This document shows positions 2,488 through 64,000 of a DNA stretch of 64,000 nucleotides, one piece after another (position 1 is the first letter of the stretch; each line of letters starts with the position of its first letter). Below the pieces are notes generated by a model. The model saw only the letters and a list, made by a program, of their open reading frames with translations. It was not told the DNA's origin and did not search any database. The position numbers and the translations under genes were made by a program. Location of the stretch: contig JASGME010000002.1 of the NCBI GenBank assembly GCA_030156615.1, forward strand, positions 7,085 through 71,084. The letters run 5' to 3'. This stretch comes from Candidatus Woesearchaeota archaeon (GTDB taxonomy: Archaea; Nanobdellota; Nanobdellia; Woesearchaeales; UBA119).

Positions 2488-2495
2488 AACCTCCT

Positions 2496-3170
2496 TTAGT
2501 CAAAGAGTCTAAATTTCAATGTGTTGAAAACTATCTTAATTCCATCTAAGGGGGTTGTGCCTTTATAAGCATTGTGGTAAATTGTTTCAATAGGTAATTG
2601 TATATATGAAAGTTTGTTCTTTATCATTCTAACTAAAAATTCAGTTTCAACTGTATAATCTGTTGAATTCCAGCGCAGCAAAGGATATGCCTTTGAGTTG
2701 AATCCTCTAAGACCACACTGACTATCTTTTATCTCCGCATGAAGAATGAGTTTTGAAAAAGCATCCAAAATAAGATTGCCTGCTCTTGATACAAAGGGCA
2801 TTTCAGATGTTCTCTTTCTATAGCCTAAAACGACATCGTATTTATCAAGCATTGATGCAAACTTTGGGATATGATGTGGGGGATGTTGGCCATCACTATC
2901 CATAACAATGATTTTCTTTGCTCTTTTAGAAGCAAAATCGCATCCTGTTTTTAGGGCAGCCCCTTTCCCAAGATTTATTTCATGCCTTATGCATTGCACA
3001 GAGAAAGATTTTGCAATCATAGAGCTATTATCTGTTGAACCATCGTCAACAACAACTACGCATTCTCTTTTAGAATATTTAAGAACATCTTTCAGTACAG
3101 ATGAAAGCATCTCCTCTTCGTTATAAACTGGCAAAACAACGAAAAAATCCTGTTCATTCTTCATTTTCAA
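2496..3170 (-). CDS. GT2 dolichyl-phosphate hexose synthase-like glycosyltransferase (DPM1/AglD-like)
   Basis: 'VVLPVYNEEE', 'VVVVDDGSTDNS' and 'VMDSDGQHPP' motifs are classic DPM1/GtrB family. Overlaps the AglB start by 17 nt (operon). Confidence 0.85.
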   Translation of the reverse strand: MKMKNEQDFFVVLPVYNEEEMLSSVLKDVLKYSKRECVVVVDDGSTDNSSMIAKSFSVQCIRHEINLGKGAALKTGCDFASKRAKKIIVMDSDGQHPPHHIPKFASMLDKYDVVLGYRKRTSEMPFVSRAGNLILDAFSKLILHAEIKDSQCGLRGFNSKAYPLLRWNSTDYTVETEFLVRMIKNKLSYIQLPIETIYHNAYKGTTPLDGIKIVFNTLKFRLFD

Positions 3171-45795: not shown

Positions 45796-46022
45796 AATAT
45801 CCACCTCTTTTATCTTGTTTTTGATTTTAAAAGTCAGTTTTTGAGGAATTCCAAGGAGCACATAGGCTCTCTCGACTTTTCTCAAAACTGCTTTAATCAA
45901 CAGATATACATAAAAGCACACCAATATATAAATTTTTCTGTTTTGGAGACTCATATACAAAATCTTCTCATAAAATTAAAAAGATATACAAGAGAAACTA
46001 AGAAAATAACTTTTGAAAAGGA

Positions 46023-48987: not shown

Positions 48988-49182
48988 TTGATTAGAATGG
49001 CTAAGATAGAAACTGTAAATGTAAGAATCCCAAGGAAGGTGGTGGATTGGTTAGATAGTTTAATCAGGGAAGGGCTCTACAAATCTCGTTCTGAAGCAAT
49101 ACGAGCCATTCTAAGAGAATATGTTTTAAGCGAAGAGAAAGCTGAAAAATCTGTTTCTTTGGAGGATGAGAGAAATGAATGA
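48988..49182 (+). CDS. Ribbon-helix-helix (CopG/NikR-N-like) DNA-binding protein
   Basis: 'KIETVNVRIPRKVVDWLDSLIREGLYKSRSEAIRAILREYV' is the canonical RHH strand-helix-helix. Confidence 0.55.
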   Translation: MIRMAKIETVNVRIPRKVVDWLDSLIREGLYKSRSEAIRAILREYVLSEEKAEKSVSLEDERNE

Positions 49183-49429
49183 TGTATTAGTTACGATTAG
49201 GATGCCCTCTCCTCTAGTTAAAAGACTTAATTCTTTATGTGAAAAAAACTTTTATATGGACCTTTCTGAGCAGATAAGAGATGTGCTAAACAAGAAGTTT
49301 CTGGAGCATGAAAATCAGAAATCTAATGCCACTAAGAAGAGCTCAAATAAAAAAGAACTAGCATACATGCTTGAAAGGAACGAACAATTACTGAGAGAAT
49401 TAAAAGAATCTTTGAGGAATTTAAAATGA
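49166..49429 (+). CDS. Second small RHH-like protein
   Basis: 'VLVTIRMPSPLVKRLNSLCEKNFYMDLSEQIRDVLNKKFLEH' has the same beta-alpha-alpha pattern. Overlaps both the upstream RHH gene and the downstream giant gene. Confidence 0.4.
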   Translation: MREMNDVLVTIRMPSPLVKRLNSLCEKNFYMDLSEQIRDVLNKKFLEHENQKSNATKKSSNKKELAYMLERNEQLLRELKESLRNLK

Positions 49430-52400: not shown

Positions 52401-52575
52401 AGCTTACCTCTCAAAACTAATAGATCAGACAATTGATAAAATTAGGAAAGGTGAAAAGTTGAACAAAATAGAAATAATTGAAAGATTAGACCAAGCGTAC
52501 GATATACTTAATGAAGAAGATAAAAAAGAAATGCAAGATGAAGTTGAAAATCTGCTTAAGATAATCAACAAATAA
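49426..52575 (+). CDS. Giant single-pass surface protein (PKD-like and CarbopepD-reg-like domains, coiled coil, TM, cytoplasmic tail)
   Basis: N-terminal TM/signal 'ALFVFLALIIGINIF'. PKD-like 'GYNYTWRLDNGTSLTGRRIELVYNEKGIHEINLTVEDAEKN'. Cna-B/CarbopepD-like 'ITVRVKDPAGRAIESAYVSIGNRRDYTNENGEVKIKAPLGEQTLRV'. TM 'IFGIVFISIVIVIYILF' at about aa 890. About 140-aa helical tail. Confidence 0.7.
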   Translation: MRRKIKGFGKRNRFERRALFVFLALIIGINIFSEIDLVYCEEPQQNQQSETTLEQESTDTEIKWTGEYGPLNNTNIIYSPEEEIVLWSIWNISSEGDIDIPISPDGNISDIEGLTWNCRNEINTDSQYNISCNATGIPAGNYTWSISLNYESEVYSTPLFNLGIERAEPNITLNVSKETIYQNETIEIFAKNFEDEGTLYLFRNGSEIKNSTYKISINQTFEEPVEYEIKLVYNGSENYLEKTKTETIKVLPLVFSLNLTKGNYYNLGDEVEFILVAPNGSNSKITIYRHLEQNIGWLKTEMYINIENETYPKIISLGCTNKTGNYSIDAEIEYLNITKEITKEYFVSNSIEIEIDVEVEGDEIEIDEGEEVLIGEEIELDALVSGGIPGYNYTWRLDNGTSLTGRRIELVYNEKGIHEINLTVEDAEKNSKSKSITIDVDEGKEITVRVKDPAGRAIESAYVSIGNRRDYTNENGEVKIKAPLGEQTLRVDKGNYEMYRRVIKVENEDTIDVVLKLEKHIANKINRIILFNPKDNVTLDSNEVTFLAGVSSSEPAKCSVLIKSTESDWFEEIKKFEVEESYALELNKELAKGKYQWKIECRINNQYFSSDIASFEVITSKETKNQETTIKSEKIDENIDIGSLRTKIEAGFENLDNLNMESKEVAEVLSVKKELEKALQTFERKMRDLNNLQYRDDLSSDEKKEKAEGYQEELKELEKKTISFVEVIDSENYVNYPKNEKLIQIASTYQNEKSILGKIDEDKLKELQNKLSVETKVSHVMLSFLDNQTKNITLVEKTITYSGEEDSRIFILEEISKDFAESTNAITFLEEQETIKKDPLVKFELEEKIIYYAEGFKDFESIKESNTILFSNNLISNDKNRNLITGAFTMQEVDFTSPIFGIVFISIVIVIYILFSTEAGEKIISFARISKKRKMNKINSLINDSLNYIEEGDLNNANLVFKEIKLLYEKMPQRIKKEAYESAIGVYDKINKAYLSKLIDQTIDKIRKGEKLNKIEIIERLDQAYDILNEEDKKEMQDEVENLLKIINK

Positions 52576-52583
52576 AAAGGAAG

Positions 52584-55500
52584 ATGGAAAAAAGAAAGAG
52601 AAAGGATGTTTTAAACAAGGACATTGAACATATTATAGAAAGAGAACCTGCCTTAGAGAAATTTTTAGATGAAAGAAACAAAAGAAGAATTGAGAGTAAA
52701 AACAACTGGACAATTATTATCTTTCTTATAGTATTCGCAATAATTCTAATAACTGCCTCAATCCTGAAATATGAAGGGATTACCGGATTATTTGTATATC
52801 ATGAGGGCAAAGGCGGATATATATATAATATGAATTTAGAATATAGAAGACCAACCTTTAATTGGGTAGCTCTCTATGGAGCTGCATTCGGAGTCGGATT
52901 TTCACAGCCTTGGGAATTTACCTTTGAACCAGGAGAAACAGAAGAAGCCAATATGTTCTTTGAGTGTGTAGAACAAGGAAAGGATAACCTCTTGTTTGCA
53001 TCTACTGTGCCGCCTGAAGAGATAAATGTGCAGGAACTTGCTCCAATGTCAACATACGATATTGATGCATTTATAAACACAGACCCAAACAATTATGATT
53101 CTGCTTCAAACACATTTACCGAAACAATGAGTATAGAGATTGGCTCTACTGTTATAAACAACATTCCGACCGCTACAACTAAGGTTGGTGATGATACAGA
53201 AGAAGGAACATTTAAAACAGGTCTTTTGAAGGACACAAATGGGAATCCTGTTATAGTAACCATCCTTAATGATAAACTAGTCAAAGGATTCAACAACCGT
53301 TACTATAACTACCAATTTCTACTTCCAGTACATAACAATGAAACCACCAAATATTACATTTTCATTGATCCAACGAATGTTTGTATGTCAGGAACAGAAG
53401 AGCCTTATATAGAAGGAACAGTATATGGAACAGTTAATGACATAAGTGGGAATCCATTAGAGGATGTGCTAATTACCTCAGGCCCAAAATCAACGGTCAC
53501 TGATGAAAAAGGATTTTATAATCTGACAACAGCGGCGGGGGAGACTCTGATTATTGCGATAAAAGAGAGGTATCAGGTTTATGAGAGCAATATTACCATC
53601 CCAGAACTAAATTCTACAGAGCATAACATCATTATGGAACTTGAGACTGAAAAGCAGAAAGAGTATGAAACCCCGCCGATGGAACAAAATGTTGGACCTG
53701 ATTTTGGGCCTGGGGTTGGTCCTGGCGAGATCCCTTATGTAGAAGAGAGACCTTCAGAGATTGAGGGAAAGGAATTTTGGGTTTCTGTCAAAGAGATAAT
53801 CAAGAAGATTAGAGAAGATGAGTTTGCTCAGGAGGTCATTCACATACAGAATTTTAAGAATACTGGGATGCTACTTCAATTCAACATAACCGGTGACGTA
53901 AGAAAACTTGCAATGCTGGATAAAAAGGATATGTTTATCGGTGCAAAAGATTTAGACGATTTAACCATTACTTTCTTTGGCAATAGTTCTCCCGGGATAT
54001 ATAATGGAAGCCTAGATATTAGTGGCGAGATTAATCATAGTATACCAATAAAGATTGAGATTCTAGATAAAGATAAAACTCAAGTCCAAGCATTGCTGAT
54101 GGAAGTCCGTGTGCCTGATAAGAGTTATTATCCGAGTTCGCTTGTTAGATTTGAGACTGCACTTACGAATATGCTTACTGACCAGCAGTATCCAGTTGGA
54201 CTTACATATACTATACAGAATATTGATGGAAATGAAACATTATGGACTCATCAGACAAATGTATTCCTTAGAACCTCTATGTCTATCCTAAAGAACTACG
54301 AATTGCCTCCGAATGTATCCCCTGGAGAATACATCATACGGGTTAGCGCAAGTTATCTTGATTTAACGAGCAGTTCTACTGCTCTGTTCACAGTTACAGA
54401 ACCATTCTTACAACATCTTCTGTTTGGAAAGATAAGGGTTTGGCAGGCGTTAGTTGGTGGGATTGGCTTGGCTCTCTTGATATTTGGTATATTATTGATT
54501 AAGAAGGAGAGAGAATCTAAGAAGAAGTACAATCTCAAAGTTGAATATTCACAACTCCCAAAGCCCGGGACTGGCACGATTTTTGTTGGAAAGATTGCTG
54601 AGACTAACAACAAAGCCTATTTTGAGGTTGATAATTTTAAGACTCACACGATTGTTGCTGGTAGTACTGGTAGTGGTAAGAGCTTTGCAGCTCAAGGGCT
54701 TGTCGAAGAATTGCTGGAGAAGGGGGTATCAGTTATTGTCTTTGATCCAACTGCCCAATGGACTGGTTTCTTGAGGAAGCTTGAGGACAAGGGACTTCTC
54801 AACCTTTATCCAGGGTTTGGAATGAAACCTAATGAAGCGAAGTCTTTTAAGGGCAATATTAGAGAGATTACTGATCCAAGGGAAATTATAAACATCAAAG
54901 AGTACATGAAACCGGGGGAAATTCAGGTTTTCGCACTCCATAAGCTTGATCCAAAAGATATGGATATTTTTGTAGCAAACACGGTTAGAGAGGTTTTCCA
55001 CGAGAATTTTGATGAATCGCGGGAGCTAAGGCTTTGCCTTGTTTACGATGAGGTCCATAGATTGCTTTCAAAGTTTGGCGGTAGCGGTGAGGGCTTCATA
55101 CAGATTGAAAGGGCTTGCAGAGAGTTTAGGAAGTGGGGCATAGGTGTAATCCTTATCAGTCAGGTTTTGGCGGACTTTGTTGGACAGATTAAAGCTAATA
55201 TCAATACAGAAGTGCAAATGAGAACTAGGGATGAAGGAGATCTTGAAAGGATTAAAACAAAGTATGGAGATGATGTATTGAAGAGTTTGGTTAAAGCGAG
55301 TGTAGGAACTGGAATGGTTGAGAATGCTGCATACAACAGGGGCCGCCCTTACTTCATTACATTCAAGCCAATCAGACATTCGGTAGAGAGGCTATCCGAT
55401 GAGGAGATTGAAAAATATAATGAGTATAATGACATTATAGATCAGATGCAGTATGAACTGGAACAGCTTGAAAAACTTGGCCAAGATGTATTTGACTTGA

Positions 55501-56531
55501 AATTGGAGTTAAAGCTTGCTCTTGATAAAGTAAAGGCAGGCGGATTCAACATGGCACAGATTTACATCGATGGCTTGAAGCCGAGGATTGAGAAGCTCTG
55601 GAAGAAGCTTGGAAAGGAGCCAAAGAAGTTGGAGAGGAAGAAGGTTTCTGAAGAAGAGATGAAGGAAGAGTTAGAGAAGGCTAAGAAAGAAAGAGAAGAA
55701 GCTATGGCCAAAGAAAAGAATAAAGGAGACAAAGATGAGAAGAAGGAGGAATCTCCAATTGAACGGTTTAACGAAGATGTTCCACCGGATAAAATGCTGA
55801 AGCTCAATAATGGAATGCTTGTAGTTAACCCAAGAAACTTGTATGCAGAGATTGAAGCGATGAAAGAATCTGTATTCAAATCTCATGTGAATGAGAATAA
55901 GAACGACTTCGCCGAATGGTTTAGAGATGCGGTAGGAGATTATGAGCTCGCAGAACTCCTTGAATCAACCAGAGACAAGAAGAAGATTTTGGAATTGTTG
56001 GACAGGAGAAGCAAAGGAGAGAAACTGTCTGAAGTGGAAATGAAGAAAGAAGATGAGAAGGAAGCGGATATTGAGCAATCAGGTGATAAGACAAAAGAGA
56101 AAGTGGAGAAAGAGAGAGATGAAGAAGGAGATAAAGAGAAAAAAGACGATGAAGAAAACAAAGAAAGAAAGGAAGATAATGAAAGAAATATAAGCAAAGA
56201 TGATGAGAAAAAAGATAATGAAAAGGATGCCTCTTCCAACTCAAAAGGTGACATAGAACTTGATGAGATACTTAAAAAGAGGGCTCCAAAAGGCAAGGAA
56301 TTCAAGTTCTCAAACGGCAAAGAGGCATCTAATCTTGAGGAGTTAGTTGAAACTCTGAAGGATATGCCCGAAGAGGAATTCATTAGTTATGTTAATAAAG
56401 ATAAGCACGATTTCTCAAACTGGGTAAGATATTCTTTAGAGAATGATGAGCTCGCTGATAAGCTATCAAAGATTATGAGCAAGGACAAGCTCATAGAGGC
56501 GTTGTCAAATGGTAGAAGAAAAGAAGAGTGA
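52584..56531 (+). CDS. Bitopic membrane protein: N-terminal TM, about 560-aa ectodomain, second TM, cytoplasmic HerA/FtsK-superfamily (DUF87-like) P-loop ATPase, and 2x repeated C-terminal module
   Basis: TM1 'IIIFLIVFAIILITASIL'. Ectodomain with CarbopepD-reg-like 'YGTVNDISGNPLEDVLITSG...TDEKGFYNL'. TM2 'ALVGGIGLALLIFGILLI' (about nt 54438-54503). Walker A 'TIVAGSTGSGKSFAAQGLVEELLEKGVSVIVFDPTAQW' (HerA 'GxTGSGKS...DPhGEY' pattern). Walker B 'CLVYDEVHRLL'. Two tail modules ('LKLNNGMLVVNP...KNDFAEWFRDAVGDYELAELL' and 'FKFSNGKEASNLEEL...KHDFSNWVRYSLENDELADKL') separated by K/E/D-rich linkers. Confidence 0.75.
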   Translation: MEKRKRKDVLNKDIEHIIEREPALEKFLDERNKRRIESKNNWTIIIFLIVFAIILITASILKYEGITGLFVYHEGKGGYIYNMNLEYRRPTFNWVALYGAAFGVGFSQPWEFTFEPGETEEANMFFECVEQGKDNLLFASTVPPEEINVQELAPMSTYDIDAFINTDPNNYDSASNTFTETMSIEIGSTVINNIPTATTKVGDDTEEGTFKTGLLKDTNGNPVIVTILNDKLVKGFNNRYYNYQFLLPVHNNETTKYYIFIDPTNVCMSGTEEPYIEGTVYGTVNDISGNPLEDVLITSGPKSTVTDEKGFYNLTTAAGETLIIAIKERYQVYESNITIPELNSTEHNIIMELETEKQKEYETPPMEQNVGPDFGPGVGPGEIPYVEERPSEIEGKEFWVSVKEIIKKIREDEFAQEVIHIQNFKNTGMLLQFNITGDVRKLAMLDKKDMFIGAKDLDDLTITFFGNSSPGIYNGSLDISGEINHSIPIKIEILDKDKTQVQALLMEVRVPDKSYYPSSLVRFETALTNMLTDQQYPVGLTYTIQNIDGNETLWTHQTNVFLRTSMSILKNYELPPNVSPGEYIIRVSASYLDLTSSSTALFTVTEPFLQHLLFGKIRVWQALVGGIGLALLIFGILLIKKERESKKKYNLKVEYSQLPKPGTGTIFVGKIAETNNKAYFEVDNFKTHTIVAGSTGSGKSFAAQGLVEELLEKGVSVIVFDPTAQWTGFLRKLEDKGLLNLYPGFGMKPNEAKSFKGNIREITDPREIINIKEYMKPGEIQVFALHKLDPKDMDIFVANTVREVFHENFDESRELRLCLVYDEVHRLLSKFGGSGEGFIQIERACREFRKWGIGVILISQVLADFVGQIKANINTEVQMRTRDEGDLERIKTKYGDDVLKSLVKASVGTGMVENAAYNRGRPYFITFKPIRHSVERLSDEEIEKYNEYNDIIDQMQYELEQLEKLGQDVFDLKLELKLALDKVKAGGFNMAQIYIDGLKPRIEKLWKKLGKEPKKLERKKVSEEEMKEELEKAKKEREEAMAKEKNKGDKDEKKEESPIERFNEDVPPDKMLKLNNGMLVVNPRNLYAEIEAMKESVFKSHVNENKNDFAEWFRDAVGDYELAELLESTRDKKKILELLDRRSKGEKLSEVEMKKEDEKEADIEQSGDKTKEKVEKERDEEGDKEKKDDEENKERKEDNERNISKDDEKKDNEKDASSNSKGDIELDEILKKRAPKGKEFKFSNGKEASNLEELVETLKDMPEEEFISYVNKDKHDFSNWVRYSLENDELADKLSKIMSKDKLIEALSNGRRKEE

Positions 56532-57012
56532 GGAGGTTCAAAACTCGGAAGAGAATAAAGAAGATGATGGAGACAAGAAAGAAAAAAGAGATCTAGGAAA
56601 AATGGAGCTTGACAGAGTAATGAACATTTCGGAGAAATACTTAGAGAAAGTCAATAGAATGAAGATGCTTGCTGGAAAGGATTTACGAGAGAACATCGAA
56701 AAGGTAGAAGAGCTAAAGGAAAAACTTAGAGAGTTTGAAGGAGAGATTTCAGCAGCCAGAAAAACAGGAAAGAATATGTTCCATTCTTCATCCTTTTTAA
56801 AACTGGCTAAAGGAAAGATTGGAATACTTGAGATTGAATATAATGAAGAAGAGATAGATAAAATGATTGAGCTTATAAATGAGATTGGGGAGCAAATCAA
56901 GGAGGATAAAGATAGGAAGGTGTTTGATTTGAGGAGCGAAATAATGATGAAGGCAAAGGATAATATAAGCAAAGAGTCAAAAGAAGAATCACAAGAAAAG
57001 ACAGATGAATAA
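56509..57012 (+). CDS. Acidic coiled-coil protein (possible start at internal Met 56602)
   Basis: K/E-rich helical sequence with heptad character. 5' end overlaps the ATPase gene in another frame. No family recognised. Confidence 0.45.
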   Translation: MVEEKKSEEVQNSEENKEDDGDKKEKRDLGKMELDRVMNISEKYLEKVNRMKMLAGKDLRENIEKVEELKEKLREFEGEISAARKTGKNMFHSSSFLKLAKGKIGILEIEYNEEEIDKMIELINEIGEQIKEDKDRKVFDLRSEIMMKAKDNISKESKEESQEKTDE

Positions 57013-57065: not shown

Positions 57066-57953
57066 ATGTGGCCATTTAAAAGGAAACCGAGCGATGAGGA
57101 ACTGATTCAGCAGAATCTGGAAAATGAAAAAAAAAGAGTGGAGGTTGGAAATAGCTCTGAAGAGAACAACTTTGATGAGTCAAAGTTGGGTATAGAACTG
57201 ATAAAACTCAGTGCTAAGGTTGAAGGATTGAGTGAAGAAAGAAAAGCCATTAATGAAAGGTTTTCCAAGATAAATGAAGAGATTGGAGAGCTGAGAGGCA
57301 TTCTGACAGATACATCAAAAACTATTGCAAATCTTGAAACTGCTGCCACTAAGGCAATTGATCTTGTTGAATCAGTCAAACCCGAGACCCTGATGGTTGA
57401 AGTCAGAAAGGTTGATTCAAAGACAGAGGCTCTAAAGGCAAATATTGAAAGCAATGAGTCTCTTGCCAAGAATGTATTGGAGCAACTGAAACAGATGCAG
57501 AACAAGATAAATTTCTATAAGGGGGTTGAACAGGTAACTAAGCTTAATGATGAAATTAAGGATGAGTTGATTGAGATAAAGAAAAGAGAAGCCACAGTAG
57601 AGAGGCATTCTAATAAGGTTGAGTCTATGTTTGTTGAGGTTGAGAAGAGATTCTCTGAATTTGATAAGTTCAATGATGTTACTAAGAATCTTCAAAGGAG
57701 TTTTGACAAGCTTCAGGGTGATTTTGATAAGCTAAAGGTTGAGATAGACAAGAAAGCTGACAAGAATGAGATGGTTACATTCATCAAGAAATTCAACAAG
57801 TTTGAGAAGCACACTACTAATCTAATAAACATGCTTGACGACAAGACAAAATCAACGATGGAAGAATTAAAGAATAAGTTTTCAAAACTCTCCAAAGAGA
57901 TTAAAGAGGAGGTTGAAGATTCCCTTAAGAAGATAAAGGAAAATAGCAAATAG
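57066..57953 (+). CDS. Coiled-coil protein (295 aa)
   Basis: Continuous heptad-rich helical sequence ('...KTIANLETAATKAIDLVESV...'), cytoplasmic in character. Encoded between the ATPase and the giant adhesin. Confidence 0.5.
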   Translation: MWPFKRKPSDEELIQQNLENEKKRVEVGNSSEENNFDESKLGIELIKLSAKVEGLSEERKAINERFSKINEEIGELRGILTDTSKTIANLETAATKAIDLVESVKPETLMVEVRKVDSKTEALKANIESNESLAKNVLEQLKQMQNKINFYKGVEQVTKLNDEIKDELIEIKKREATVERHSNKVESMFVEVEKRFSEFDKFNDVTKNLQRSFDKLQGDFDKLKVEIDKKADKNEMVTFIKKFNKFEKHTTNLINMLDDKTKSTMEELKNKFSKLSKEIKEEVEDSLKKIKENSK

Positions 57954-57968
57954 AAATAAGGATTTCAG

Positions 57969-60900
57969 ATGCAAAAAAGAAAAATTATTGGAGGTTTGTT
58001 AGTTTTAATCATATTCCTGATTTTAGGTAATCAGGGCTCTTTTTCTGAGATTCAGGATTCTGCTGTTTCTTTTGCCCCTCTTGAAAAGGAGGCATATGGA
58101 ATTAATGAAAGTATAGAGATTGAGCTACTTCCTAAAGAGATTAATGGAATTGATGTTTCCAACGAATATGATTTGGTGATGGTTAAAGAAGATCTGAGAA
58201 GCAAGTATTTTGGTGAGCTGTTTTTTCCTCTTGTGCTAAGTTTTTCTGAGCCGGGAGAATATATAATGTTTTTAATTAATAATCAAGGGGAAGAGATTAG
58301 TCGTCTGAAATTTGTTGTTTCTGATGATAAAGATAGCAATGTGACGAAAAAAGAGGCAGATAATGATAGGTATCCTGTGCTTAAGATAAGCTCAAACATG
58401 CTTGCTAAGGGAGAAGAATTGATAATTTCGCTTTTGGAAGGCGATATTACCGATTCCTCATTGGATCTATATATCACCCATGAAAATAAGAATTTCAAGT
58501 TGTTAGAGCTTTCCAGAGAGGTTAGATTTACTCCTTCTAAAGAGGGAGAATATCGAGTTCAGCTCAGGGATGATGAAAAGGTTGTTGATGAGATGATTTT
58601 TTATGTTGAAGAAAAAAGCAATAACGAAAAAAGCGAGAATAAAGAGATGTTGCCTAAAAGAGAAACTGGAGGAGAATTTAACCTTTCTTCTTTGAATCAA
58701 GAAAAAAGGCTTGCAACTATTCCAGTTAGGGCAAAGAATCACAAAGGGCAAACGAAAGAGCTTATTGGAGTCCTAGGGAGCTCTTTTCGAGGAGAATTTG
58801 TTGAAGTTGTTAATGCAACAAACAATATAAAAAGAATCAGAGTCTATGATCTGAAGCTGAACAACATTAATGAACTGAAGATAGAGGATATTGATAATAA
58901 AGAGGTTTGGGTAAACCGGGAGAAGAGCGTACAATCCTTTGCAATTGATCCACGGGCTTTGAATTTCTCATTTGCTCAGATTGAACTTGAGGCAAAAGGA
59001 ACTGCATTGTATAAATGCGAGGAGTATGATTTCGATACACAAGAATGTTTTGGTGGCTGGAAGAAAGAAAGGAACATTGTTCCTGGAGAGAATTATACTA
59101 TTGTGCTTACCCCTGAGGATCCTTTGTACAGCGAAATAAACACTTCTGTCGGATGCAGCTGCTCTGATTCGGCAAATCGGCAGACTAGCGGAACACTCTC
59201 CTGTTCTACTTTCTGCCCTTTTAACATAGACATCCCTGAAGATGCAATGAGTTTTTTCCTTCAAGAGATTTATTATGACATTACTGTTACTGTGAATAAC
59301 GATAGATGTACAATGACAAATGCTCAGCAGAGAGGATATTTTGACCATGATCAAAATCAAGGGGATGGTGATGAAGCTATTATAGGGAGCAGTTCTTATA
59401 CTTCAACCACATCAACAACATGGACAAATTCAAGCATTGCACAATCAGGTTCTTATTCTTTCACTAACCTTGATTGCAGCAATTGGCCTAATTATTGCAC
59501 TTATTATGTATACATTAATTCAAGCATGGATTTTACTTCGCCATTTGGGTTACTTAGGAGAAGTCCTAGTATGACTATTTCTGTTGATGCTATAAATTAT
59601 ACTATCAACTATACAGAAGCAGGCTCCTTCTCAGTATCCCTTGATTCGCCATTTCACCTATACAGGACGAATGCAACTATACAAGAATTTACATATACCC
59701 CAAGCAATGAAGATTATTCTATCAGCAACTGTTCTATATATACTAATGAAACAAGCTGGAGCGTGAAGAATACTACTTATTCTATCACAAACGGAAGTCA
59801 GAACACAATAACAGCAGAGTTCAATAATGAAGGACATTATGCCTGGAATGTGAGGTGCTGGGATTCTAATGGGAATAACGCTACTTCTGCAACAAACAGA
59901 ACTATTATTATCGATAGGACTGGTCCTGAGATTGCTCTTGTTTCTCCAGCAAACGAAGAAACATATACAGATTCAAATGTTGTTTCCTTTACCTATAATG
60001 TGAGCGATGATTCAGATATTGATAATTGCACTTTATACATAAATGGAATTGCTAAGAAAACAGACAGTTCTATATCAAAGGGCCAAAACCAGATTATATA
60101 TTATAACCTTAACAATGGAGATTATACTTGGTCCATTGGCTGCATTGATGAAGCAGGGAATTTTAATCAAAGCAGCTCACGAGATCTCACTGTAGCAGCG
60201 ATCAAGCCAATTTATTATGGAAGCTGGTATGAATCTTCTTCCAATGATTGCACAATATTCCCTTGTGAAATTTCTTTACAGCAGCAGAACGATGGAACCC
60301 AGAATTCTATTTCTGGAACAATACCTGCTTCTGCTTCTGAGCTGATAATCAAAGCAGAATCTCCTTTTATGGGAGCGAACGGTGCAGAAATATCTACTTC
60401 AAATGTACTTTTCAGCACTTATTTTCAAACATCTAATAGCAGAGTAGAAGTAAGCTGGTGGTTATATATCCTGAACAGCTCTGATGGAAAAGAGTTGATA
60501 TGCTCAAATACATTAGGAACAGCAAGTTCTTCTGGAGCAGCTACAACAGGGAGTTGTACACCTTCTAGCGACAAGAGACTTCTTAGCACTGACAGGTTAT
60601 ACTATGAAATAGAACTTACAAACACATTTCCCATATTTTCAAGGAATTTCAATCATCTTATTGATCATGTCTCAAGCTTTGTAAATATTACTGGTTTTAC
60701 CCAGTTGGGAAATCTTGAAGCAACAAAAACCTCTCCATCTTCTACATTATACATTAATCAAGGTGAATCTTTTATATTATCATGTGATGTGAATTGCAGT
60801 GCTGGAAGTTGTCTTAATACAAATGTAACAGCAGAGACCAATGAATCGGGAAGCTGGAACGTCATATCTTCTTCAGGGATTGTATCGCTTAATGGAAGCG

Positions 60901-63900
60901 AGAACAATCCTCATGTCATGGGCAATATCTTCAACACTTCCAATTCAACCTCTTTCAGCTTGAATGGCTCTTCTCCGGGCTCTACTTATGTTAGGTGTGC
61001 TGCTCAAAGTAAGTATTCTACTTCTTATACAGAACCTGTTAAGATAAATGTAATAAGTACTGAAGCACCAGAGGTAAATCTTATTTCTCCTGAGAATGAA
61101 AGCTGGATAAACAGTTCAAGCGTTATCCTTAAATATATCCCATCATCATATAACGAGATTGCCAACTGCAGTCTATATATTGATGGAATTTTTAATCAGA
61201 CCAATTCCAGCCAGATAAACAATGGAGGAACTAATACTTTCACCATCTCATCACTTGAGCAAAAAGAATACAATTGGAGCGTCTCCTGTACTGATACTTA
61301 TTCAAGAACAGGGAATTCTTCTACATGGAAGTTCAATGTAGATTATAATAAGCCTTATATGATTGAGCTTAACGAACCTATTGATGAGTTTAGCACTACC
61401 TCTCCAGATATTGAATTTAACTGGACCGCATATGATAATATTGCTTCTAACATGAGCTGTGATTTAAGAATTAACGGATCTGTCAACAAATCCATTATTG
61501 CATATAATGGAAGCCCTGCAAATACCACAATTTATGATTTAGATATTGGTCATTATGTCTGGGATGTTGTATGCATGGATTGGGCAAATAATTCAAATAC
61601 CTCAGAAACAAGAAGCTTTAATATCTCTGATGAACCTCCTTATGTCTCTTTATATTCCCCTGAGAATGAAAGCGGGACAAACGAGACAACTGTTGAATTT
61701 ACATATAATGCTTATGATAATTTTGCTCTGGCGGAATGTAAATTGTATATCAATGGGGAATATAATCAAAGCAATCAAACTGAGCTGATAAATGGATTGA
61801 ACAATTTTAGTGTTAGTTTTGAGGAAGGAATATATAATTGGAGCGTTAGTTGTTACGATAACAAAGACAATAGTGCTTCAACAGGAAATGCAACCCTTTA
61901 TGTTGATTTCACTAAACCAGAGATTGGCCTTCAGGCTCCTGCTCCTGAAGCCTATTTCACTGATTCGAAGATTAGTTTTTCTTATACACCAACTGACAAC
62001 TATCAAGAGTTAAATTGCACTTTGTATGTTGACGGAATTGAGAATGATCATTCGGAAGTAATCAGCGGAAGCCAGTACGATGTTACCTTGACTGGATATA
62101 AAGACGGAGTTCATTATTGGAATGTGAGCTGCACGGATATTGGAGGAAATATCAATTATTCTGAGACAAGGAATTTTACTATAAACCAAACCCCTATTGT
62201 TGAGCCCATATCTCCATTAAATAATACACATACGAATCAGGACAATGTAATCATAGAATATAATGTAAGCGATAATGATGAGATTGGGAGTTGCAGCTTG
62301 TTCATTAATGGAAGTTTTAATCAGACTAATTCTACAGCGATATCAAAGGATCAGGTAAACAACTTTACACTTTCTTTCCCTTCAGAAGGAGAATATAACT
62401 GGTCAGTGGAATGCAACGATAGTGGGACATATAGCAATTCTAATGAATCTTATGTTTGGAATTTTATCGTAGATAGGACGGGTCCAAAAGTCTCATTAAA
62501 CCATCCTGAGAATGACTATACAATTAACACTCCGCTCTACACATTTAATTGGACAGTTGAGGATAATTTCGCTACTGGGCTTCTCTGTAACATTACTATA
62601 AACGATAGCGTTAATGGGAGCAATATTGAAAGCAATAATGGAGCTCCTACCTTGTTTAATGTGACTGGACTAAGGAACGGAGATTTTAATTGGAGTGTTA
62701 CCTGCGCAGACAATGCAACTAATACTAATACCTCTGAGACTTGGAATTTTACAGTACTTCTTATTCCTAGGGTTGACCTTACAAGCCCAGAAGACGGAGA
62801 CGGTGATTTATTTCATGATGTAACATTTAAGTATATACCAAGTTTGGGGAGCGAGAATTTTATCAATTGCAGCCTTTGGTTAAATGGAGAGGAAAACGAA
62901 ACAAGTTATGATATAACTGCTAATGCAGAGAATAACTTTACTGTTAATCTGCCTGATGGAAAATATGAATGGAATGTAAAATGTTATGACAGCAACAATC
63001 TTGATGGAATGGCTAAAGAGAACTGGACTTATTATGTGGATTCAGAAGTGCCTTATGATATAGAATTGTTATATCCTGAAAATGATTCTATTGTTGAAAG
63101 AAACAATGTATCCTTCAAGTTTATACCAAAGGATAAGGTTTCAGATGAGTTAAGCTGTGATATTTATCTAACTGATGAGGAATTCACTTATAAAATAGGG
63201 TCTGATTTGAATGCAACCAATGGAAGTGAATATGTCTATTATTCTGTTTTAGAAGATGGAAGTTATAATTGGAGCGTGGACTGCACTGATAAGGCAGGAA
63301 ACTTTAATGTATCTGATACCTTTTACTTTGATGTTTTGGCGCCACCAAATGTTACTTTAGTTGCACCTGATAATGAAACCTGGTTCAATGAAACAGATGT
63401 GAATCTTACTTATTTTCCTTCAGATGACATACTAATAACTGGCTGTGCTCTATACATAAATGGGAGCTATGAGAAGTCGGCATCTTTTGTATTGAACAAC
63501 CAGAACAATACCTTTGAGCTAAACGATATTTCACAGGGGGAATATCTATGGAGTGTAAAATGTTATGACAGCGATGGAAACAGTTTTATGCCTGTGAATA
63601 AGACTTTCTATGTGGATAATCAGACTCCTAAGATTTTCCTAAATCATCCAACTAATTCAGAAGAGCTGGACTCAAGCTCTGTAACGTTTAATTGGACTGT
63701 AAATGATAATCTTGCAAAAAAGCTTAGTTGCGACCTCTTGATTAATAATAGTCCCAAAGAAACGAATATAATGAGCAACAATGGAGAGCCGACTAACTTT
63801 ACCATTGAAGGAATGGATGACGGAGATTATAACTGGAGCATTGTATGTAGGGACAATGCTCAGAATTCAAATCAAAGCAGCACTGAGGACTTTTCAGTGC

Positions 63901-64000
63901 AGGAGCCACCAAAGATAAGCTTAGGAGATCCTGTTGAAAATAATAGAAACAATTCTGTTAATATGACTCTGTATTTTACGGCAACAGACAACTCCGGTGA
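57969..64000 (+). CDS. Giant repeat adhesin-like surface protein, 3' partial (>2010 aa, continues beyond window)
   Basis: ATG at 57969, preceded by in-frame TAA at 57957. N-terminal signal 'IIGGLLVLIIFLILG'. Traced codon by codon with no in-frame stop to the window end. Not in the supplied track because it has no stop codon. Confidence 0.75.
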   Translation, partial: MQKRKIIGGLLVLIIFLILGNQGSFSEIQDSAVSFAPLEKEAYGINESIEIELLPKEINGIDVSNEYDLVMVKEDLRSKYFGELFFPLVLSFSEPGEYIMFLINNQGEEISRLKFVVSDDKDSNVTKKEADNDRYPVLKISSNMLAKGEELIISLLEGDITDSSLDLYITHENKNFKLLELSREVRFTPSKEGEYRVQLRDDEKVVDEMIFYVEEKSNNEKSENKEMLPKRETGGEFNLSSLNQEKRLATIPVRAKNHKGQTKELIGVLGSSFRGEFVEVVNATNNIKRIRVYDLKLNNINELKIEDIDNKEVWVNREKSVQSFAIDPRALNFSFAQIELEAKGTALYKCEEYDFDTQECFGGWKKERNIVPGENYTIVLTPEDPLYSEINTSVGCSCSDSANRQTSGTLSCSTFCPFNIDIPEDAMSFFLQEIYYDITVTVNNDRCTMTNAQQRGYFDHDQNQGDGDEAIIGSSSYTSTTSTTWTNSSIAQSGSYSFTNLDCSNWPNYCTYYVYINSSMDFTSPFGLLRRSPSMTISVDAINYTINYTEAGSFSVSLDSPFHLYRTNATIQEFTYTPSNEDYSISNCSIYTNETSWSVKNTTYSITNGSQNTITAEFNNEGHYAWNVRCWDSNGNNATSATNRTIIIDRTGPEIALVSPANEETYTDSNVVSFTYNVSDDSDIDNCTLYINGIAKKTDSSISKGQNQIIYYNLNNGDYTWSIGCIDEAGNFNQSSSRDLTVAAIKPIYYGSWYESSSNDCTIFPCEISLQQQNDGTQNSISGTIPASASELIIKAESPFMGANGAEISTSNVLFSTYFQTSNSRVEVSWWLYILNSSDGKELICSNTLGTASSSGAATTGSCTPSSDKRLLSTDRLYYEIELTNTFPIFSRNFNHLIDHVSSFVNITGFTQLGNLEATKTSPSSTLYINQGESFILSCDVNCSAGSCLNTNVTAETNESGSWNVISSSGIVSLNGSENNPHVMGNIFNTSNSTSFSLNGSSPGSTYVRCAAQSKYSTSYTEPVKINVISTEAPEVNLISPENESWINSSSVILKYIPSSYNEIANCSLYIDGIFNQTNSSQINNGGTNTFTISSLEQKEYNWSVSCTDTYSRTGNSSTWKFNVDYNKPYMIELNEPIDEFSTTSPDIEFNWTAYDNIASNMSCDLRINGSVNKSIIAYNGSPANTTIYDLDIGHYVWDVVCMDWANNSNTSETRSFNISDEPPYVSLYSPENESGTNETTVEFTYNAYDNFALAECKLYINGEYNQSNQTELINGLNNFSVSFEEGIYNWSVSCYDNKDNSASTGNATLYVDFTKPEIGLQAPAPEAYFTDSKISFSYTPTDNYQELNCTLYVDGIENDHSEVISGSQYDVTLTGYKDGVHYWNVSCTDIGGNINYSETRNFTINQTPIVEPISPLNNTHTNQDNVIIEYNVSDNDEIGSCSLFINGSFNQTNSTAISKDQVNNFTLSFPSEGEYNWSVECNDSGTYSNSNESYVWNFIVDRTGPKVSLNHPENDYTINTPLYTFNWTVEDNFATGLLCNITINDSVNGSNIESNNGAPTLFNVTGLRNGDFNWSVTCADNATNTNTSETWNFTVLLIPRVDLTSPEDGDGDLFHDVTFKYIPSLGSENFINCSLWLNGEENETSYDITANAENNFTVNLPDGKYEWNVKCYDSNNLDGMAKENWTYYVDSEVPYDIELLYPENDSIVERNNVSFKFIPKDKVSDELSCDIYLTDEEFTYKIGSDLNATNGSEYVYYSVLEDGSYNWSVDCTDKAGNFNVSDTFYFDVLAPPNVTLVAPDNETWFNETDVNLTYFPSDDILITGCALYINGSYEKSASFVLNNQNNTFELNDISQGEYLWSVKCYDSDGNSFMPVNKTFYVDNQTPKIFLNHPTNSEELDSSSVTFNWTVNDNLAKKLSCDLLINNSPKETNIMSNNGEPTNFTIEGMDDGDYNWSIVCRDNAQNSNQSSTEDFSVQEPPKISLGDPVENNRNNSVNMTLYFTATDNSG
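61065..64000 (+). repeat. At least 11 tandem ~285-290-nt (~95-aa) protein-coding repeats inside the giant adhesin gene
   Basis: Repeat units begin near 61065, 61350, 61630, 61915, 62190, 62480, 62770, 63050, 63340, 63620 and 63905. Each has 'P(E/D)N..(T/S)...', 'NC(S/T)L(Y/W)ING..N(Q/E)(T/S)' and '(Y/F)NWSV.C.D..(G/N)N'. Two earlier, more divergent copies lie near 59,900-60,190. Confidence 0.75.

What the first reader, a model, noticed from the sequence alone, without database searches (positions are those of the whole stretch)
57969..64000. Giant (>2000 aa, open-ended) adhesin with at least 11 tandem ~95-aa repeats carrying a conserved Cys pair and invariant N-glycosylation sequons
Each repeat has one Cys in 'NC(S/T)LYING' and a second in 'YNWSV(S/T)C.D', consistent with an Ig-like beta-sandwich stabilised by one disulfide. 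'N-W-S', 'N-Q-T', 'N-C-S/T' and 'N-E-T' sequons recur at fixed positions in almost every unit. The conserved 'YNWS' motif is itself a sequon, implying the glycan is part of the repeat design. This fits the AglB cluster at the other end of the window. The gene is absent from the supplied ORF track because it lacks a stop.
Basis: seen in the sequence. Interest (0 to 1): 0.72.

Follow-up and report, generated by a model that had tools for sequence, protein, structure and literature searches.

The report
Giant glycosylated surface fibre, Woesearchaeota
The open reading frame is the first two-thirds of a roughly 3,100-residue secreted, probably sugar-coated rod protein of a tiny DPANN archaeon; it matters because it ends in an undescribed C-terminal domain and always sits behind a membrane ATPase gene cassette.

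Summary
Window 57969-64000(+) is an uninterrupted 2010-codon ORF running off the contig. It holds 12 complete units of ~97 aa plus one partial unit, ~31% identical to each other, each with a co-varying Cys pair. Pfam calls them Big_13/Big_7, and AlphaFold2 gives Ig/Fn3-like sandwiches (pLDDT 97.5) resembling the BIg domains of the adhesin SiiE. Sequons are 2.2-fold enriched (z=9.4) and better conserved between orthologs than other Asn. None is invariant across repeats (at most 50% occupancy).

Independent assemblies supply the rest of the gene. It is a 3137-aa protein with a fixed layout kept down to 34% identity:
- Sec signal and N-terminal region
- 2 units, a 283-aa Cys-rich insert, then 12 alternating A/B units
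- CARDB, 6 units, CARDB
- a 188-aa C-terminal "cap", with no membrane anchor

The cap is strictly C-terminal in 105 of 105 carriers and has 851 representative clusters, nearly all from Woesearchaeota. It has no Pfam, NCBIfam or PDB match, although its predicted structure is confident.

The gene ends a conserved cassette: two RHH proteins, a PKD membrane protein, a two-TM HerA/FtsK ATPase and two coiled-coil proteins. This is a split counterpart of nanohaloarchaeal SPEARE giants. The most likely function is a long glycosylated contact fibre.

The parts
57969..64000 (+). 5' two-thirds (2010 codons) of the giant fibre gene. The full-length ortholog is 3137 aa.
   Evidence: Open frame with no stop. 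P0001 is 94% identical and 3137 aa. The same gene lies complete in L001 and L002.
57969..58046 (+). Sec-type signal peptide (aa 1-26, MQKRKIIGGLLVLIIFLILGNQGSFS|E).
   Evidence: It is the only hydrophobic segment in the full-length protein. Orthologs have equivalent n/h/c regions with small residues at -3/-1. Cleavage is inferred.
58047..59618 (+). N-terminal non-repeat region (aa 27-550). The first ~300 aa are the least conserved part. Aa ~280-395 form a module shared with other Woesearchaeal surface proteins, and aa 350-550 are Cys-rich.
   Evidence: No Pfam hit. Conservation profile. Module sharing with P0012, P0014-P0016, the L008 7158-aa giant and the L004 2032-aa giant.
59619..60209 (+). 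Ig-like units u1-u2 (aa 551-747).
   Evidence: Unit HMM scores of 89 and 101 bits. Cys pairs 588/630 and 687/725.
60210..61058 (+). 283-aa insert splitting the array (aa 748-1030). It has 6 invariant Cys. Its C-terminal ~110 aa carry a classical Ig-like C...W...C signature.
   Evidence: Alignment A1. No Pfam or PDB sequence match. Present at the same place in all orthologs and in P0008 and L009.
61059..63914 (+). Ig-like units u3-u12 (aa 1031-1982), alternating A (odd) and B (even) subtypes.
   Evidence: Odd-odd and even-even identity is 0.31-0.36 against 0.23-0.28 for odd-even. AF2 model of u11-u12 has pLDDT 97.5.
63915..64000 (+). Start of unit u13, cut by the window end.
   Evidence: Continues as unit 13 of 20 in P0001.
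57066..57953 (+). Cassette gene 6: 295-aa cytoplasmic coiled-coil protein.
   Evidence: No TM segment. Only coiled-coil-type weak hits. Conserved position in all related loci.
56509..57012 (+). Cassette gene 5: 167-aa acidic cytoplasmic protein. It overlaps the ATPase gene by 23 nt.
   Evidence: Conserved position in related loci.
52584..56531 (+). Cassette gene 4: 1315-aa membrane ATPase. It has two TM helices (aa 43-61 and 621-639), a ~560-aa extracellular part with a CarboxypepD_reg-like sandwich, and a cytoplasmic HerA/FtsK-superfamily ATPase with a DUF5752-like tail.
   Evidence: Pfam DUF87 at 1.1e-11, plus TrwB_AAD_bind and FtsK_SpoIIIE. PDB HerA 4d2i at 1.8e-9. TM segments. Orthologs are 53-58% identical across Woesearchaeota.
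49426..52575 (+). Cassette gene 3: 1049-aa bitopic membrane protein with an extracellular PKD + CarboxypepD_reg region and a cytoplasmic coiled-coil tail.
   Evidence: Pfam PKD at 8e-9. TM segments 14-32 and 899-917. Sequons 26 against 11.4 expected. Conserved position in related loci.
49166..49429 (+). Cassette gene 2: 87-aa protein, RHH-like by eye.
   Evidence: ORF. Equivalent 82-88-aa gene in L004, L007, L008 and L009.
48988..49182 (+). Cassette gene 1: 64-aa ribbon-helix-helix (CopG-like) protein.
   Evidence: ORF. Orthologous genes carry Pfam RHH_1 in L004, L007, L008 and L009.
2089..5922 (-). AglB operon: AglB/STT3 (3154-5922, WWDFG at aa 573), GT2 (2496-3170) and DUF2304 (2089-2487). 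It is the glycosylation machinery presumed to act on the fibre, not part of the cassette.
   Evidence: Pfam STT3 at 4.2e-41. GT2 and DUF2304. Motif.

Best explanation
The ORF is the N-terminal 2010 residues of a ~3137-residue secreted surface fibre of a Woesearchaeota (DPANN) archaeon.

Shown:
- The protein starts with a Sec-type signal and has no other hydrophobic segment.
- Most of its length is a rod of Ig/Fn3-like beta-sandwiches. There are 20 units in a fixed, position-by-position conserved order, plus two CARDB domains.
- 17 of the 20 units carry a co-varying buried Cys pair.
- Sequons sit on outward-facing strand positions at 5-7 per 100 residues. They are enriched beyond composition and conserved between orthologs. 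A complete AglB is encoded on the same contig.
- The protein ends in a strictly C-terminal CARDB + 188-aa 'cap' module. Hundreds of Woesearchaeal secreted proteins of 320 to over 7000 aa share this module.
- The gene is the last member of a conserved cassette encoding a two-TM HerA/FtsK-type ATPase, a bitopic PKD protein, two cytoplasmic coiled-coil proteins and two RHH proteins.

Inferred:
- After Sec export and AglB glycosylation the protein forms a stiff, glycan-shielded, disulfide-stapled rod of roughly 100 nm.
- The Ig array is a spacer. The conserved ends do the work.
- The cap, whose position at the very C-terminus is obligatory, most likely docks or sorts the fibre non-covalently onto the cell's own envelope. 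The extracellular domains of the cassette's two membrane proteins are the obvious candidates for the docking site.
- The more variable N-terminal region and the Cys-rich insert are held outward to contact a partner cell or surface.
- Functionally it is the split-gene counterpart of nanohaloarchaeal SPEARE giants, in which Ig array, TM helix, ATPase and coiled coil are fused in one protein.
For: ORF and repeats.

Fold:
- Pfam Big_13 at 1e-28 and Big_7 at 1.4e-12.
- AF2 pLDDT 97.5 and pTM 0.84.
- Foldseek hits to CbhA Fn3 at 6.8e-11 and SiiE BIg at 4e-9, TM 0.60-0.65.

Cys pairing: 130 units with both, 21 with neither, 1 alignment-gap artefact.

Fixed architecture:
- 20 units in each of 7 orthologs of 94-34% identity.
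- Positional orthology in 17, 13 and 11 of 20 units.

Secretion without anchor.

Sequons:
- Enrichment z = 9.4 overall and 10.8 in the array, with the reversed control at expectation. Cytoplasmic proteins of the window are not enriched.
- Sequon Asn are conserved more than other Asn, OR 1.7-2.4, p from 6e-5 to 0.01. 47 of 172 sequons are kept in all 7 orthologs.
- AglB with WWDFG.

Cap:
- Terminal in 105 of 105 carriers, ending 0-1 residue before the stop in 100.
- 216 genomic stretches, nearly all Woesearchaeota/Nanoarchaeia.
- 851 representative clusters, C-terminal in all 150 listed, including the 7158-aa L008 giant.
- Minimal carriers are signal + CARDB + cap.

Shared ends with variable middle.

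Cassette synteny.

Against: - No experiment or expression data exist for this lineage. Glycosylation, disulfide formation, surface retention and adhesion are all inferred.
- Orientation (which end is cell-proximal) is not established. The cap could equally be a distal binding knob.
- Woesearchaeota are mostly anaerobes, where extracellular disulfides are less secure.
- Homology of the cassette ATPase to the SPEARE ATPase was not tested directly, because no SPEARE sequence was available. It rests on shared superfamily hits (HerA/VirB4/TraG/ResIII-like) and on a statement in PMC6642349.
- In L005 unrelated genes lie between the cassette and the giant, so linkage is strong but not absolute.
Confidence: 0.7

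Rival explanations
1. The fibre is a working part of a SPEARE/type-IV-secretion-like transfer machine. The ATPase hexamer and the PKD protein form a membrane channel, and the cap-bearing fibre tethers a host cell or forms a conduit. DNA, nucleotides or effector proteins are moved between cells, so adhesion is only the first step. This extends the best explanation rather than excluding it.
For: - The ATPase is a two-TM HerA/FtsK-superfamily pump with weak hits to TrwB/VirD4, FtsK, CedD, TraC and TraD.
- The cassette is conserved with the fibre.
- The fused equivalent in nanohaloarchaea has been proposed as a secretion 'straw' or uptake device (PMC10266531, PMC6642349).
- The ATPase is more conserved than the fibre, 53-58% against 34-45%.
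Against: - All matches to T4SS, Ced or conjugation families cover only the P-loop core and fall far below family cut-offs, for example CedD at 33 bits against 600.
- No VirB2/VirB6-like, pilin or channel component was found in the cassette.
- The fibre has its own Sec signal, so it does not need the ATPase for export.
- An Ig rod has no lumen.
Confidence: 0.2
2. The protein is a structural envelope component, such as an S-layer-associated canopy, matrix or protective glycocalyx protein, rather than a specific adhesin. The cap would be an S-layer or lattice anchoring and oligomerisation domain.
For: - Several cap carriers occur per genome, ranging from 320 aa (signal + CARDB + cap only) to giants.
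- Sequon density is very high, as in archaeal S-layer glycoproteins.
- The fixed length of 20 units suggests a ruler or spacer role.
- CARDB is named for cell adhesion-related domains but is common in archaeal envelope proteins (own knowledge).
Against: - S-layer proteins are normally among the most conserved and abundant proteins and are not usually 3000-7000 aa.
- Giants in the same cassette position carry Laminin_G, FG-GAP and pentaxin-type binding domains.
- Allelic mosaicism within the gene is more typical of interaction proteins.
Confidence: 0.15
3. The cassette is a mobile element, provirus or defence island. That would mean a HerA/FtsK packaging or defence ATPase with a tail-fibre-like Ig protein.
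For: - The ATPase core hits a PHROG terminase family at 9e-10 and PADLOC HerA/mad8 models at up to 2.6e-18.
- The fibre has a faint Pfam Ig_J (tip attachment protein J) hit and matches a PHROG of unknown function.
Against: - Only the generic ATPase core matches. No other cassette protein hits phage or defence libraries.
- The ATPase has two TM helices and a 560-aa extracellular domain.
- The cassette sits in the same chromosomal neighbourhood, next to a divergent ABC-transporter pair, in the window, L007 and L008.
- No tRNA gene was detected anywhere in the window, and no integrase or capsid gene turned up among the window proteins scanned against Pfam, which were not all of them.
Confidence: 0.03
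4. The long ORF or its repeats are an assembly artefact or a decaying pseudogene.
For: The window ends inside the gene, and repeats can mislead assemblers.
Against: - No DNA-level tandem repeat. DNA repeats are 60 nt or shorter at 60-90% identity.
- The same ORF is complete, at 3137 aa, in two JGI samples, with orthologs in ENA, NCBI and Logan assemblies.
- Changes against the L001 allele are 177 synonymous against 114 nonsynonymous codons, with no frameshift.
Confidence: 0.01

Closest known systems
SPEARE giant surface proteins of Nanohaloarchaeota (Ca. Nanohaloarchaeum antarcticus NAR1_1133; Ca. Nanohalococcus occultus SVXNc_0300)
   Same: - A DPANN archaeon with a small genome invests about 1% or more of it in one giant gene.
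- Sec signal and long arrays of Ig-like domains.
- Association with a membrane-anchored HerA/VirB4/TraG-type ATPase and a coiled-coil region.
- Relatives of the intracellular part have been reported in Woesearchaeota (PMC10266531, PMC6642349).
   Different: - Here the parts are separate genes. The Ig fibre is a TM-less secreted protein. The ATPase has its own 560-aa ectodomain. The coiled coils are two small proteins.
- The fibre ends in a CARDB + cap module not described for SPEARE.
- There is no WD40, protease-like or toxin-like region.
- Direct sequence homology was not tested.
SiiE (Salmonella) and other giant BIg/RTX adhesins (MpIBP, LapA)
   Same: Tandem ~95-100-aa bacterial-Ig-like sandwiches form an extended rod. 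The di-domain model superposes on SiiE BIg50-52 with TM 0.60-0.65. Binding domains are inserted or terminal, with the repeats acting as an extender.
   Different: - SiiE-type adhesins are exported by type I secretion through a C-terminal signal and are rigidified by Ca2+. They have near-identical repeats in some cases and no N-glycans or disulfides.
- This protein is archaeal and Sec-exported. No RTX/HemolysinCabind match is reported.
- Its repeats are ~31% identical and individually orthologous across species.
- Stabilisation is presumably by disulfides and glycans.
Pfam Big_13 (PF19077) / Big_7 (PF17957) bacterial Ig-like domains and CARDB (PF07705)
   Same: The units score above the curated cut-offs (Big_13 100.3 bits against 27; Big_7 48.5 against 24.1). 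The full-length orthologs carry CARDB.
   Different: These are generic fold families that say nothing about function. The conserved Cys pair and the A/B alternation are specific to this lineage.
C-terminal sorting or anchoring domains (T9SS CTD of Bacteroidota; archaeal PGF-CTERM/archaeosortase signals)
   Same: An obligatorily C-terminal module is shared by many otherwise unrelated secreted proteins of one lineage. That is the hallmark of a sorting or attachment signal.
   Different: - The cap is 188 aa, about twice the size of a T9SS CTD, with a predicted fold that matches nothing in the PDB.
- It has no TM helix, unlike PGF-CTERM.
- No archaeosortase or T9SS components were looked for or seen.
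- The resemblance is functional analogy only.

Membership tests
Pfam Big_13 / Big_7 Ig-like repeat proteins | Sequence match above the curated gathering score | tested here: met
   Big_13 at E = 1e-28, 100.3 bits (cut-off 27), 7 stretches. Big_7 at 1.4e-12, 48.5 bits (cut-off 24.1).
Pfam Big_13 / Big_7 Ig-like repeat proteins | Ig/Fn3-like beta-sandwich fold | tested here: met
   AF2 di-domain with pLDDT 97.5, all-beta, 8 strands per unit. 288 PDB Foldseek hits at E <= 1e-3, all Ig/Fn3-like.
Classical immunoglobulin domain with canonical disulfide | Inter-sheet disulfide between strands B and F | tested here: inconclusive
   The Cys pair co-varies perfectly. By strand order in the model the Cys are on strands 4 (C) and 7 (F), not B and F.
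RTX / type I-secreted giant adhesins (SiiE, LapA, MpIBP) | C-terminal RTX repeats or T1SS signal, and no N-terminal Sec signal | tested here: not met
   No RTX/HemolysinCabind family is reported for the window fragment or for P0001's precomputed Pfam list. An N-terminal Sec-type signal is present. The C-terminus is the cap.
RTX / type I-secreted giant adhesins (SiiE, LapA, MpIBP) | Adjacent ABC exporter, MFP and outer-membrane factor genes | tested here: not met
   The neighbouring ABC genes are ABC-2 type permease + ATPase on the opposite strand. The organism is an archaeon with no outer membrane.
SPEARE proteins (Nanohaloarchaeota) | Giant Sec-exported protein dominated by adhesion or Ig-like domains | tested here: met
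   Definition from PMC6642349 and PMC10266531.
SPEARE proteins (Nanohaloarchaeota) | TM helix followed by a cytoplasmic VirB4/TraG/HerA-like ATPase and coiled coil in the same polypeptide | tested here: not met
   Full-length orthologs have no TM helix beyond the signal and no ATPase. These parts are encoded by separate upstream genes.
SPEARE proteins (Nanohaloarchaeota) | Sequence homology of the ATPase portion to SPEARE intracellular regions | not tested
There is only shared superfamily membership and the statement in PMC6642349 that Woesearchaeota have similar sequences.
Archaeal AglB-dependent N-glycoproteins | Sec export, N-X-S/T sequons, and AglB with the WWDxG motif in the genome | tested here: met
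   Signal. 101 sequons, z = 9.4. Sequon Asn preferentially conserved. AglB STT3 at 4.2e-41 with WWDFG.
Archaeal AglB-dependent N-glycoproteins | Glycan actually attached | not testable with these tools
   Needs glycoproteomics of an enrichment or culture.
PGF-CTERM / archaeosortase substrates | C-terminal motif + TM helix + basic tail | tested here: not met
   No C-terminal hydrophobic segment in P0001-P0007. Only 3 of 57 complete genomic carriers and 1 of 51 large carriers have any TM-like segment beyond the signal.
HerA/FtsK superfamily ATPases (cassette gene 4) | P-loop ATPase core matching HerA/FtsK/VirB4-type models | tested here: met
   Pfam DUF87 at 46 bits (cut-off 23.2), TrwB_AAD_bind at 26.3 (cut-off 20.5). 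PDB HerA 4d2i at 1.8e-9.
Named subfamilies CedD / TraC(VirB4) / TraD / HerA repair helicase | Score above the NCBIfam equivalog cut-off | tested here: not met
   Best is CedD at 33.1 bits against cut-off 600. TraC scores 32.3 against 567, and HerA 29.6 against 800.

The most novel reading that the evidence does not exclude
The CARDB + cap module may be a new class of archaeal C-terminal docking or sorting domain with a fold not yet seen experimentally. The conserved seven-gene cassette would then be a Woesearchaeota-wide envelope machine, ancestral to or derived from SPEARE. In this reading, cap-bearing fibres of interchangeable length and binding content are mounted on an ATP-driven membrane complex and used to capture host cells, and possibly to move DNA or proteins between cells.
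Probability: 0.25. Interest if true: 0.8.

Novelty: new variant of a known kind. Interest (0 to 1): 0.55.

Why it matters
Woesearchaeota are among the most widespread uncultured archaea. They are assumed to depend on partner cells, but no attachment apparatus has been defined for them.

This locus offers a concrete candidate. It is a family of hundreds of secreted proteins recognisable by one strictly C-terminal domain. The largest of these proteins take about 1-2% of a ~1-Mb genome. They are genetically tied to a membrane HerA/FtsK ATPase, in an arrangement that mirrors in split form the SPEARE giants implicated in nanohaloarchaeal host interaction.

What this provides:
- A sequence marker (the cap profile) for finding such fibres in metagenomes.
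- A testable docking hypothesis: cap against the cassette ectodomains.
- A domain with a confident predicted structure and no solved relative.
- A clean statistical case that N-glycosylation sites are under selection in a DPANN surface protein.

Tried and rejected
- TRF and direct-repeat search on the DNA found nothing that could cause repeat collapse.
- Pfam, NCBIfam and PDB sequence searches found nothing for the N-terminal region, the insert or the cap.
It was replaced by an alignment of permitted database hits.
- PHROGs and PADLOC scans of the cassette gave only generic ATPase-core hits, so the prophage and defence readings were rejected.
- Literature searches found no description of the cap or the Woesearchaeal cassette. 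The terms were DUF5752, Woesearchaeota plus adhesin/giant/CARDB, and HerA plus DPANN.
- An ungapped nucleotide comparison with L001 was misleading because of a one-codon indel. It was redone with a codon-aware alignment.
- Searching the 75 cap loci for the cassette ATPase was limited by the 10-kb flank, because the giant gene alone is 9.4 kb. Only L048 and L049 reached a full-strength ATPase.

Full report
**1. The observation**

Translation of window 57969-64000(+) gives 2010 codons without a stop. The ORF tool omits it only because it runs off the window.

I seeded units on the Cys spacing, aligned them and built an HMM. This gave 12 complete units of ~97 aa at aa 551-747 and 1031-1982, plus the start of a 13th. 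Mean pairwise identity is 31%, range 21-48%. It did not note that a 283-aa non-repeat insert (aa 748-1030) splits the array.

TRF finds no DNA tandem repeat. The longest direct DNA repeats are 60 nt or shorter at 60-90% identity. The repeats are therefore old and diverged and cannot be an assembly collapse.

**2. What the units are**

Pfam assigns them to Big_13 (E = 1e-28) and Big_7 (1.4e-12), both above curated cut-offs.

I modelled an A-B unit pair (u11-u12) with a 41-row alignment of unit pairs from the window and its orthologs. The AlphaFold2 model has mean pLDDT 97.5 and pTM 0.84 and is all-beta, with eight strands per unit.

Foldseek against the PDB returns only Ig/Fn3-like tandems. The top hits are CbhA Fn3-like modules (6.8e-11) and BIg50-52 of the giant adhesin SiiE (4e-9, TM 0.60-0.65 over the di-domain).

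The two Cys (HMM columns 37 and 76) are both present in 130 of 152 units from eight proteins. Both are absent in 21 units, always units 15, 16 and 19, where they are replaced by Tyr/Phe/Trp plus Ala/Gly. The single mixed case is an alignment gap. Joint loss with a large-small replacement is what a contacting, probably disulfide-bonded, pair predicts.

By strand order the Cys lie on strands C and F, not the canonical Ig B-F pair.

**3. Sequons**

The fragment has 101 N-X-S/T sequons against 45.2 +/- 6.0 after shuffling (z = 9.4). The main array has 71 against 25.3 (z = 10.8). The reversed tripeptide control is at expectation.

Cytoplasmic proteins of the window show no enrichment. Other proteins with signal or TM features do, for example 43256-44152 with 16 against 4.6. 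Sequon selection is therefore a property of this organism's secretome rather than of this gene alone.

No sequon is invariant across 152 units. The hot columns are 12, 17, 24, 36, 42, 46, 59, 71, 84 and 90. They are occupied in 28-49% of units. They fall on outward-facing strand positions or in loops, and the middle residue of the sequon is often the inward-facing hydrophobic one (N-F-T, N-W-S, N-C-T).

Between orthologs, individual sites are conserved. Sequon Asn are retained more often than non-sequon Asn (OR 1.7-2.4, p from 6e-5 to 0.01). At 34-45% overall identity, 44-68% of sequons sit at the same column. 47 of 172 are kept in all seven orthologs.

AglB (STT3 at 4.2e-41, WWDFG motif) with two GT2 enzymes, DUF2304 and a radical-SAM/SPASM enzyme lies at the other end of the window. 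The 'glycoprotein' reading is well supported statistically. 'Invariant sequons' is not.

**4. The whole protein**

A homology search returned full-length relatives: P0001 (3137 aa, 94% identical), P0002 (74%) and P0003-P0007 (45-34%). All are 3099-3171 aa, and one is named as Candidatus Woesearchaeota.

Looking up the upstream 295-aa protein by identity found two JGI contigs carrying the complete gene.

The unit HMM finds exactly 20 units in every one of the seven orthologs, at equivalent positions. Units are best matched by the unit at the same position in another species in 17, 13 and 11 of 20 cases. Units 3-14 alternate between two subtypes. Odd-odd and even-even identity is 0.31-0.36, against 0.23-0.28 for odd-even.

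The layout is:
- signal peptide, then N-terminal region (aa 27-550)
- u1-u2, then the insert, then u3-u14
- CARDB, then u15-u20, then CARDB
- a 188-aa C-terminal domain ending ...FY[TA]E[IL]K

The only hydrophobic segment is the N-terminal Sec-type signal, which has plausible signal-peptidase sites in all orthologs. There is no C-terminal anchor.

This is a fixed, ancient architecture and not a fluid repeat array. With about 30 beta-sandwich domains I estimate a rod of roughly 100 nm. That estimate comes from typical Ig-domain dimensions and is my own knowledge, not a measurement.

**5. The C-terminal cap**

The 188-aa domain has no Pfam, NCBIfam or PDB sequence match.

A scan of one genome per species found 216 confirmed stretches. 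Nearly all are in MAGs labelled Woesearchaeota, Nanoarchaeota or Nanoarchaeia, and the best (91%) is Ca. Woesearchaeota UBA119.

In 75 fetched loci I found 105 carrier ORFs. In all of them the domain is terminal. It ends 0-1 residue before the stop in 100 and within 6 in the rest. The terminal motif is [VIL]x[FLIVM][YF]xE[ILV]x.

Carriers range from 513 aa to over 3500 aa, with 0 to 24 or more Ig units, and often two lie side by side.

An exhaustive profile search of 1.84 billion representatives found 851 clusters (688 at E <= 1e-30). The cap is C-terminal in all 150 listed, and carriers reach 7158 aa.

Most carriers have an N-terminal signal and almost none has another TM segment. The smallest complete carriers are just signal + CARDB + cap.

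Profiles of the other modules show that the N-terminal region is also shared with cassette-linked giants of different composition. The middle of the protein varies.

**6. The cassette**

Immediately upstream, on the same strand and with gaps of 8, -23, 53 and 15 nt, lie four genes:
- A 1049-aa bitopic protein with PKD and CarboxypepD_reg ectodomains and a cytoplasmic coiled-coil tail.
- A 1315-aa protein with two TM helices, a ~560-aa ectodomain and a cytoplasmic HerA/FtsK-superfamily ATPase. It hits DUF87, TrwB_AAD_bind and FtsK_SpoIIIE, and PDB HerA at 1.8e-9.
- A 167-aa acidic cytoplasmic protein.
- A 295-aa cytoplasmic coiled-coil protein.

Two small RHH-type ORFs precede these four genes.

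The same order recurs around orthologs of the giant and around ATPase orthologs from other Woesearchaeota. The order is RHH, ~85 aa, ~1000-aa PKD protein, ~1300-aa ATPase, two small proteins, then the giant. A divergent ABC-2 transporter pair is retained upstream in three cases.

The terminal giant varies. It is 3125 aa of Big_13/CARDB in L009. In L008 it is 7158 aa with Laminin_G_3, FG-GAP and pentaxin-like domains, and it too ends in the cap. In L004 a second 2032-aa cap carrier follows the first.

The ATPase is better conserved (53-58%) than the fibre. It falls far below the cut-offs of CedD, TraC, TraD or repair HerA families.

Phage and defence libraries match only the ATPase core.

**7. 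Comparison with what is known**

Nanohaloarchaeal SPEARE giants are described as one polypeptide. It runs from a Sec signal through adhesion domains (about 75 tandem Ig-like domains in SVXNc_0300) to a TM helix, then a cytoplasmic VirB4/TraG-like ATPase and a coiled coil. Proposed roles are host attachment and transfer (PMC10266531).

Hamm et al. noted that the conserved intracellular part has similar sequences in Woesearchaeota (PMC6642349). That part was then annotated as a type III restriction enzyme. The ATPase here also gives a weak ResIII hit.

The Woesearchaeal cassette contains the same parts as separate genes. This gene-fusion relationship argues that fibre, ATPase and coiled-coil proteins act together.

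I found no paper describing the cap, the fixed 20-unit fibre or the cassette.

**8. Mechanism, and what is inferred**

Shown:
- Secretion signal and Ig-rod fold.
- A co-varying Cys pair.
- Selected sequons, with AglB on the same contig.
- A strict C-terminal cap shared by a large family.
- Conserved linkage to the ATPase cassette.

Inferred:
- The rod is a glycan-shielded, disulfide-stapled spacer.
- The cap is a sorting or docking module. The reasons are its obligatory position at the very end, its high conservation, and its presence on every paralog including minimal ones.
- The cap probably binds the ectodomains of the cassette membrane proteins or the envelope.
- The less conserved N-terminal region and the Cys-rich insert face outward as binding parts.

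The opposite orientation, with the cap as a distal knob, is not excluded. Whether the ATPase moves cargo, powers assembly or does something else is unknown.

**9. Verdict**

The finding is real and its core reading is right: a giant Ig-repeat, probably N-glycosylated surface protein. It needs corrections on repeat count, continuity, 'invariant' sequons and the anchor.

By itself it is a new variant of a known kind, the giant DPANN surface proteins. The added value lies in three things:
- the undescribed cap domain
- the fixed architecture
- the split-SPEARE cassette

Interest is 0.55.

Noticed in passing
window 57969-64000 vs L001:6969-13000: The window's allele and the L001/L002 allele form a recombination mosaic. 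Codons 1-450, 651-750 and 1151-1750 are essentially identical at nucleotide level. Codons 451-650, 751-1150 and 1751-2010 carry about 10-13 synonymous and 5-10 nonsynonymous codon changes per 50 codons. The totals are 177 synonymous, 114 nonsynonymous and one single-codon indel. The upstream genes are 99.7% identical.
   Followed up: partly
window 7024-7833 (-): A full-length, strong match to bacterial-type prolipoprotein diacylglyceryl transferase (Pfam LGT, E = 1.9e-75) on an archaeal contig. This is unusual for archaea.
   Followed up: no
window 39816-42989 (+): A 1057-aa bitopic membrane protein (TM 25-43 and 759-777) with no Pfam match and sequon enrichment (21 against 9.5). Its cytoplasmic tail ('NDFAIWLRD') resembles the DUF5752-like tail of the cassette ATPase ('HDFSNWVRY'). 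It may be a paralogous partner of the cassette.
   Followed up: no
window 43256-44152 (-), 30983-31885 (-), 36851-37576 (-), 45034-45960 (-): Small proteins with strong sequon enrichment (for example 16 against 4.6, and 14 against 4.7 expected), while cytoplasmic proteins show none. This suggests selection for N-glycosylation sites across the secretome.
   Followed up: no
L028:13079-14386, L035:12969-14192, L038:4439-5641, L061:3451-4731: In four loci a giant cap carrier is followed by a small (730-900 aa) cap carrier and then by a ~400-430-aa ORF. That ORF weakly matches the cassette ATPase profile (E = 1e-24 to 1e-29). This may be a second, smaller ATPase-linked arrangement.
   Followed up: no
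L005:7346-9953 and L005:19572-22100: In this ortholog's locus several unrelated genes are inserted between the cassette and the giant: a SemiSWEET-like gene, a methyltransferase, HypA and a 197-aa ORF. An 842-aa Ser/Thr protein kinase follows the giant.
   Followed up: no
L011, L014, L032, L033 and others; L062; P0047; P0046: Many MAGs carrying this Woesearchaeal cap are labelled 'uncultured Methanosarcinales'. One contig is labelled Patescibacteria and one protein Bacteroidota. One cap fragment is named 'ribosome recycling factor'. These are probably placeholder taxonomy, mis-binning or mis-annotation.
   Followed up: no
window 60720-61058 (aa ~918-1030 of the giant): The C-terminal third of the insert carries the classical Ig signature that the repeat units lack. 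It has a Cys in '...ILSCDV', a Trp in 'SWNVIS' and a Cys in 'YVRCAAQS'. This suggests a canonical B-F disulfide Ig domain next to a ~170-aa domain of unknown fold. It was seen by eye only.
   Followed up: no
window 1110-2081 (+): A radical-SAM/SPASM enzyme sits directly after a GT2 glycosyltransferase and beside the AglB operon. It may be involved in glycan or peptide modification.
   Followed up: no
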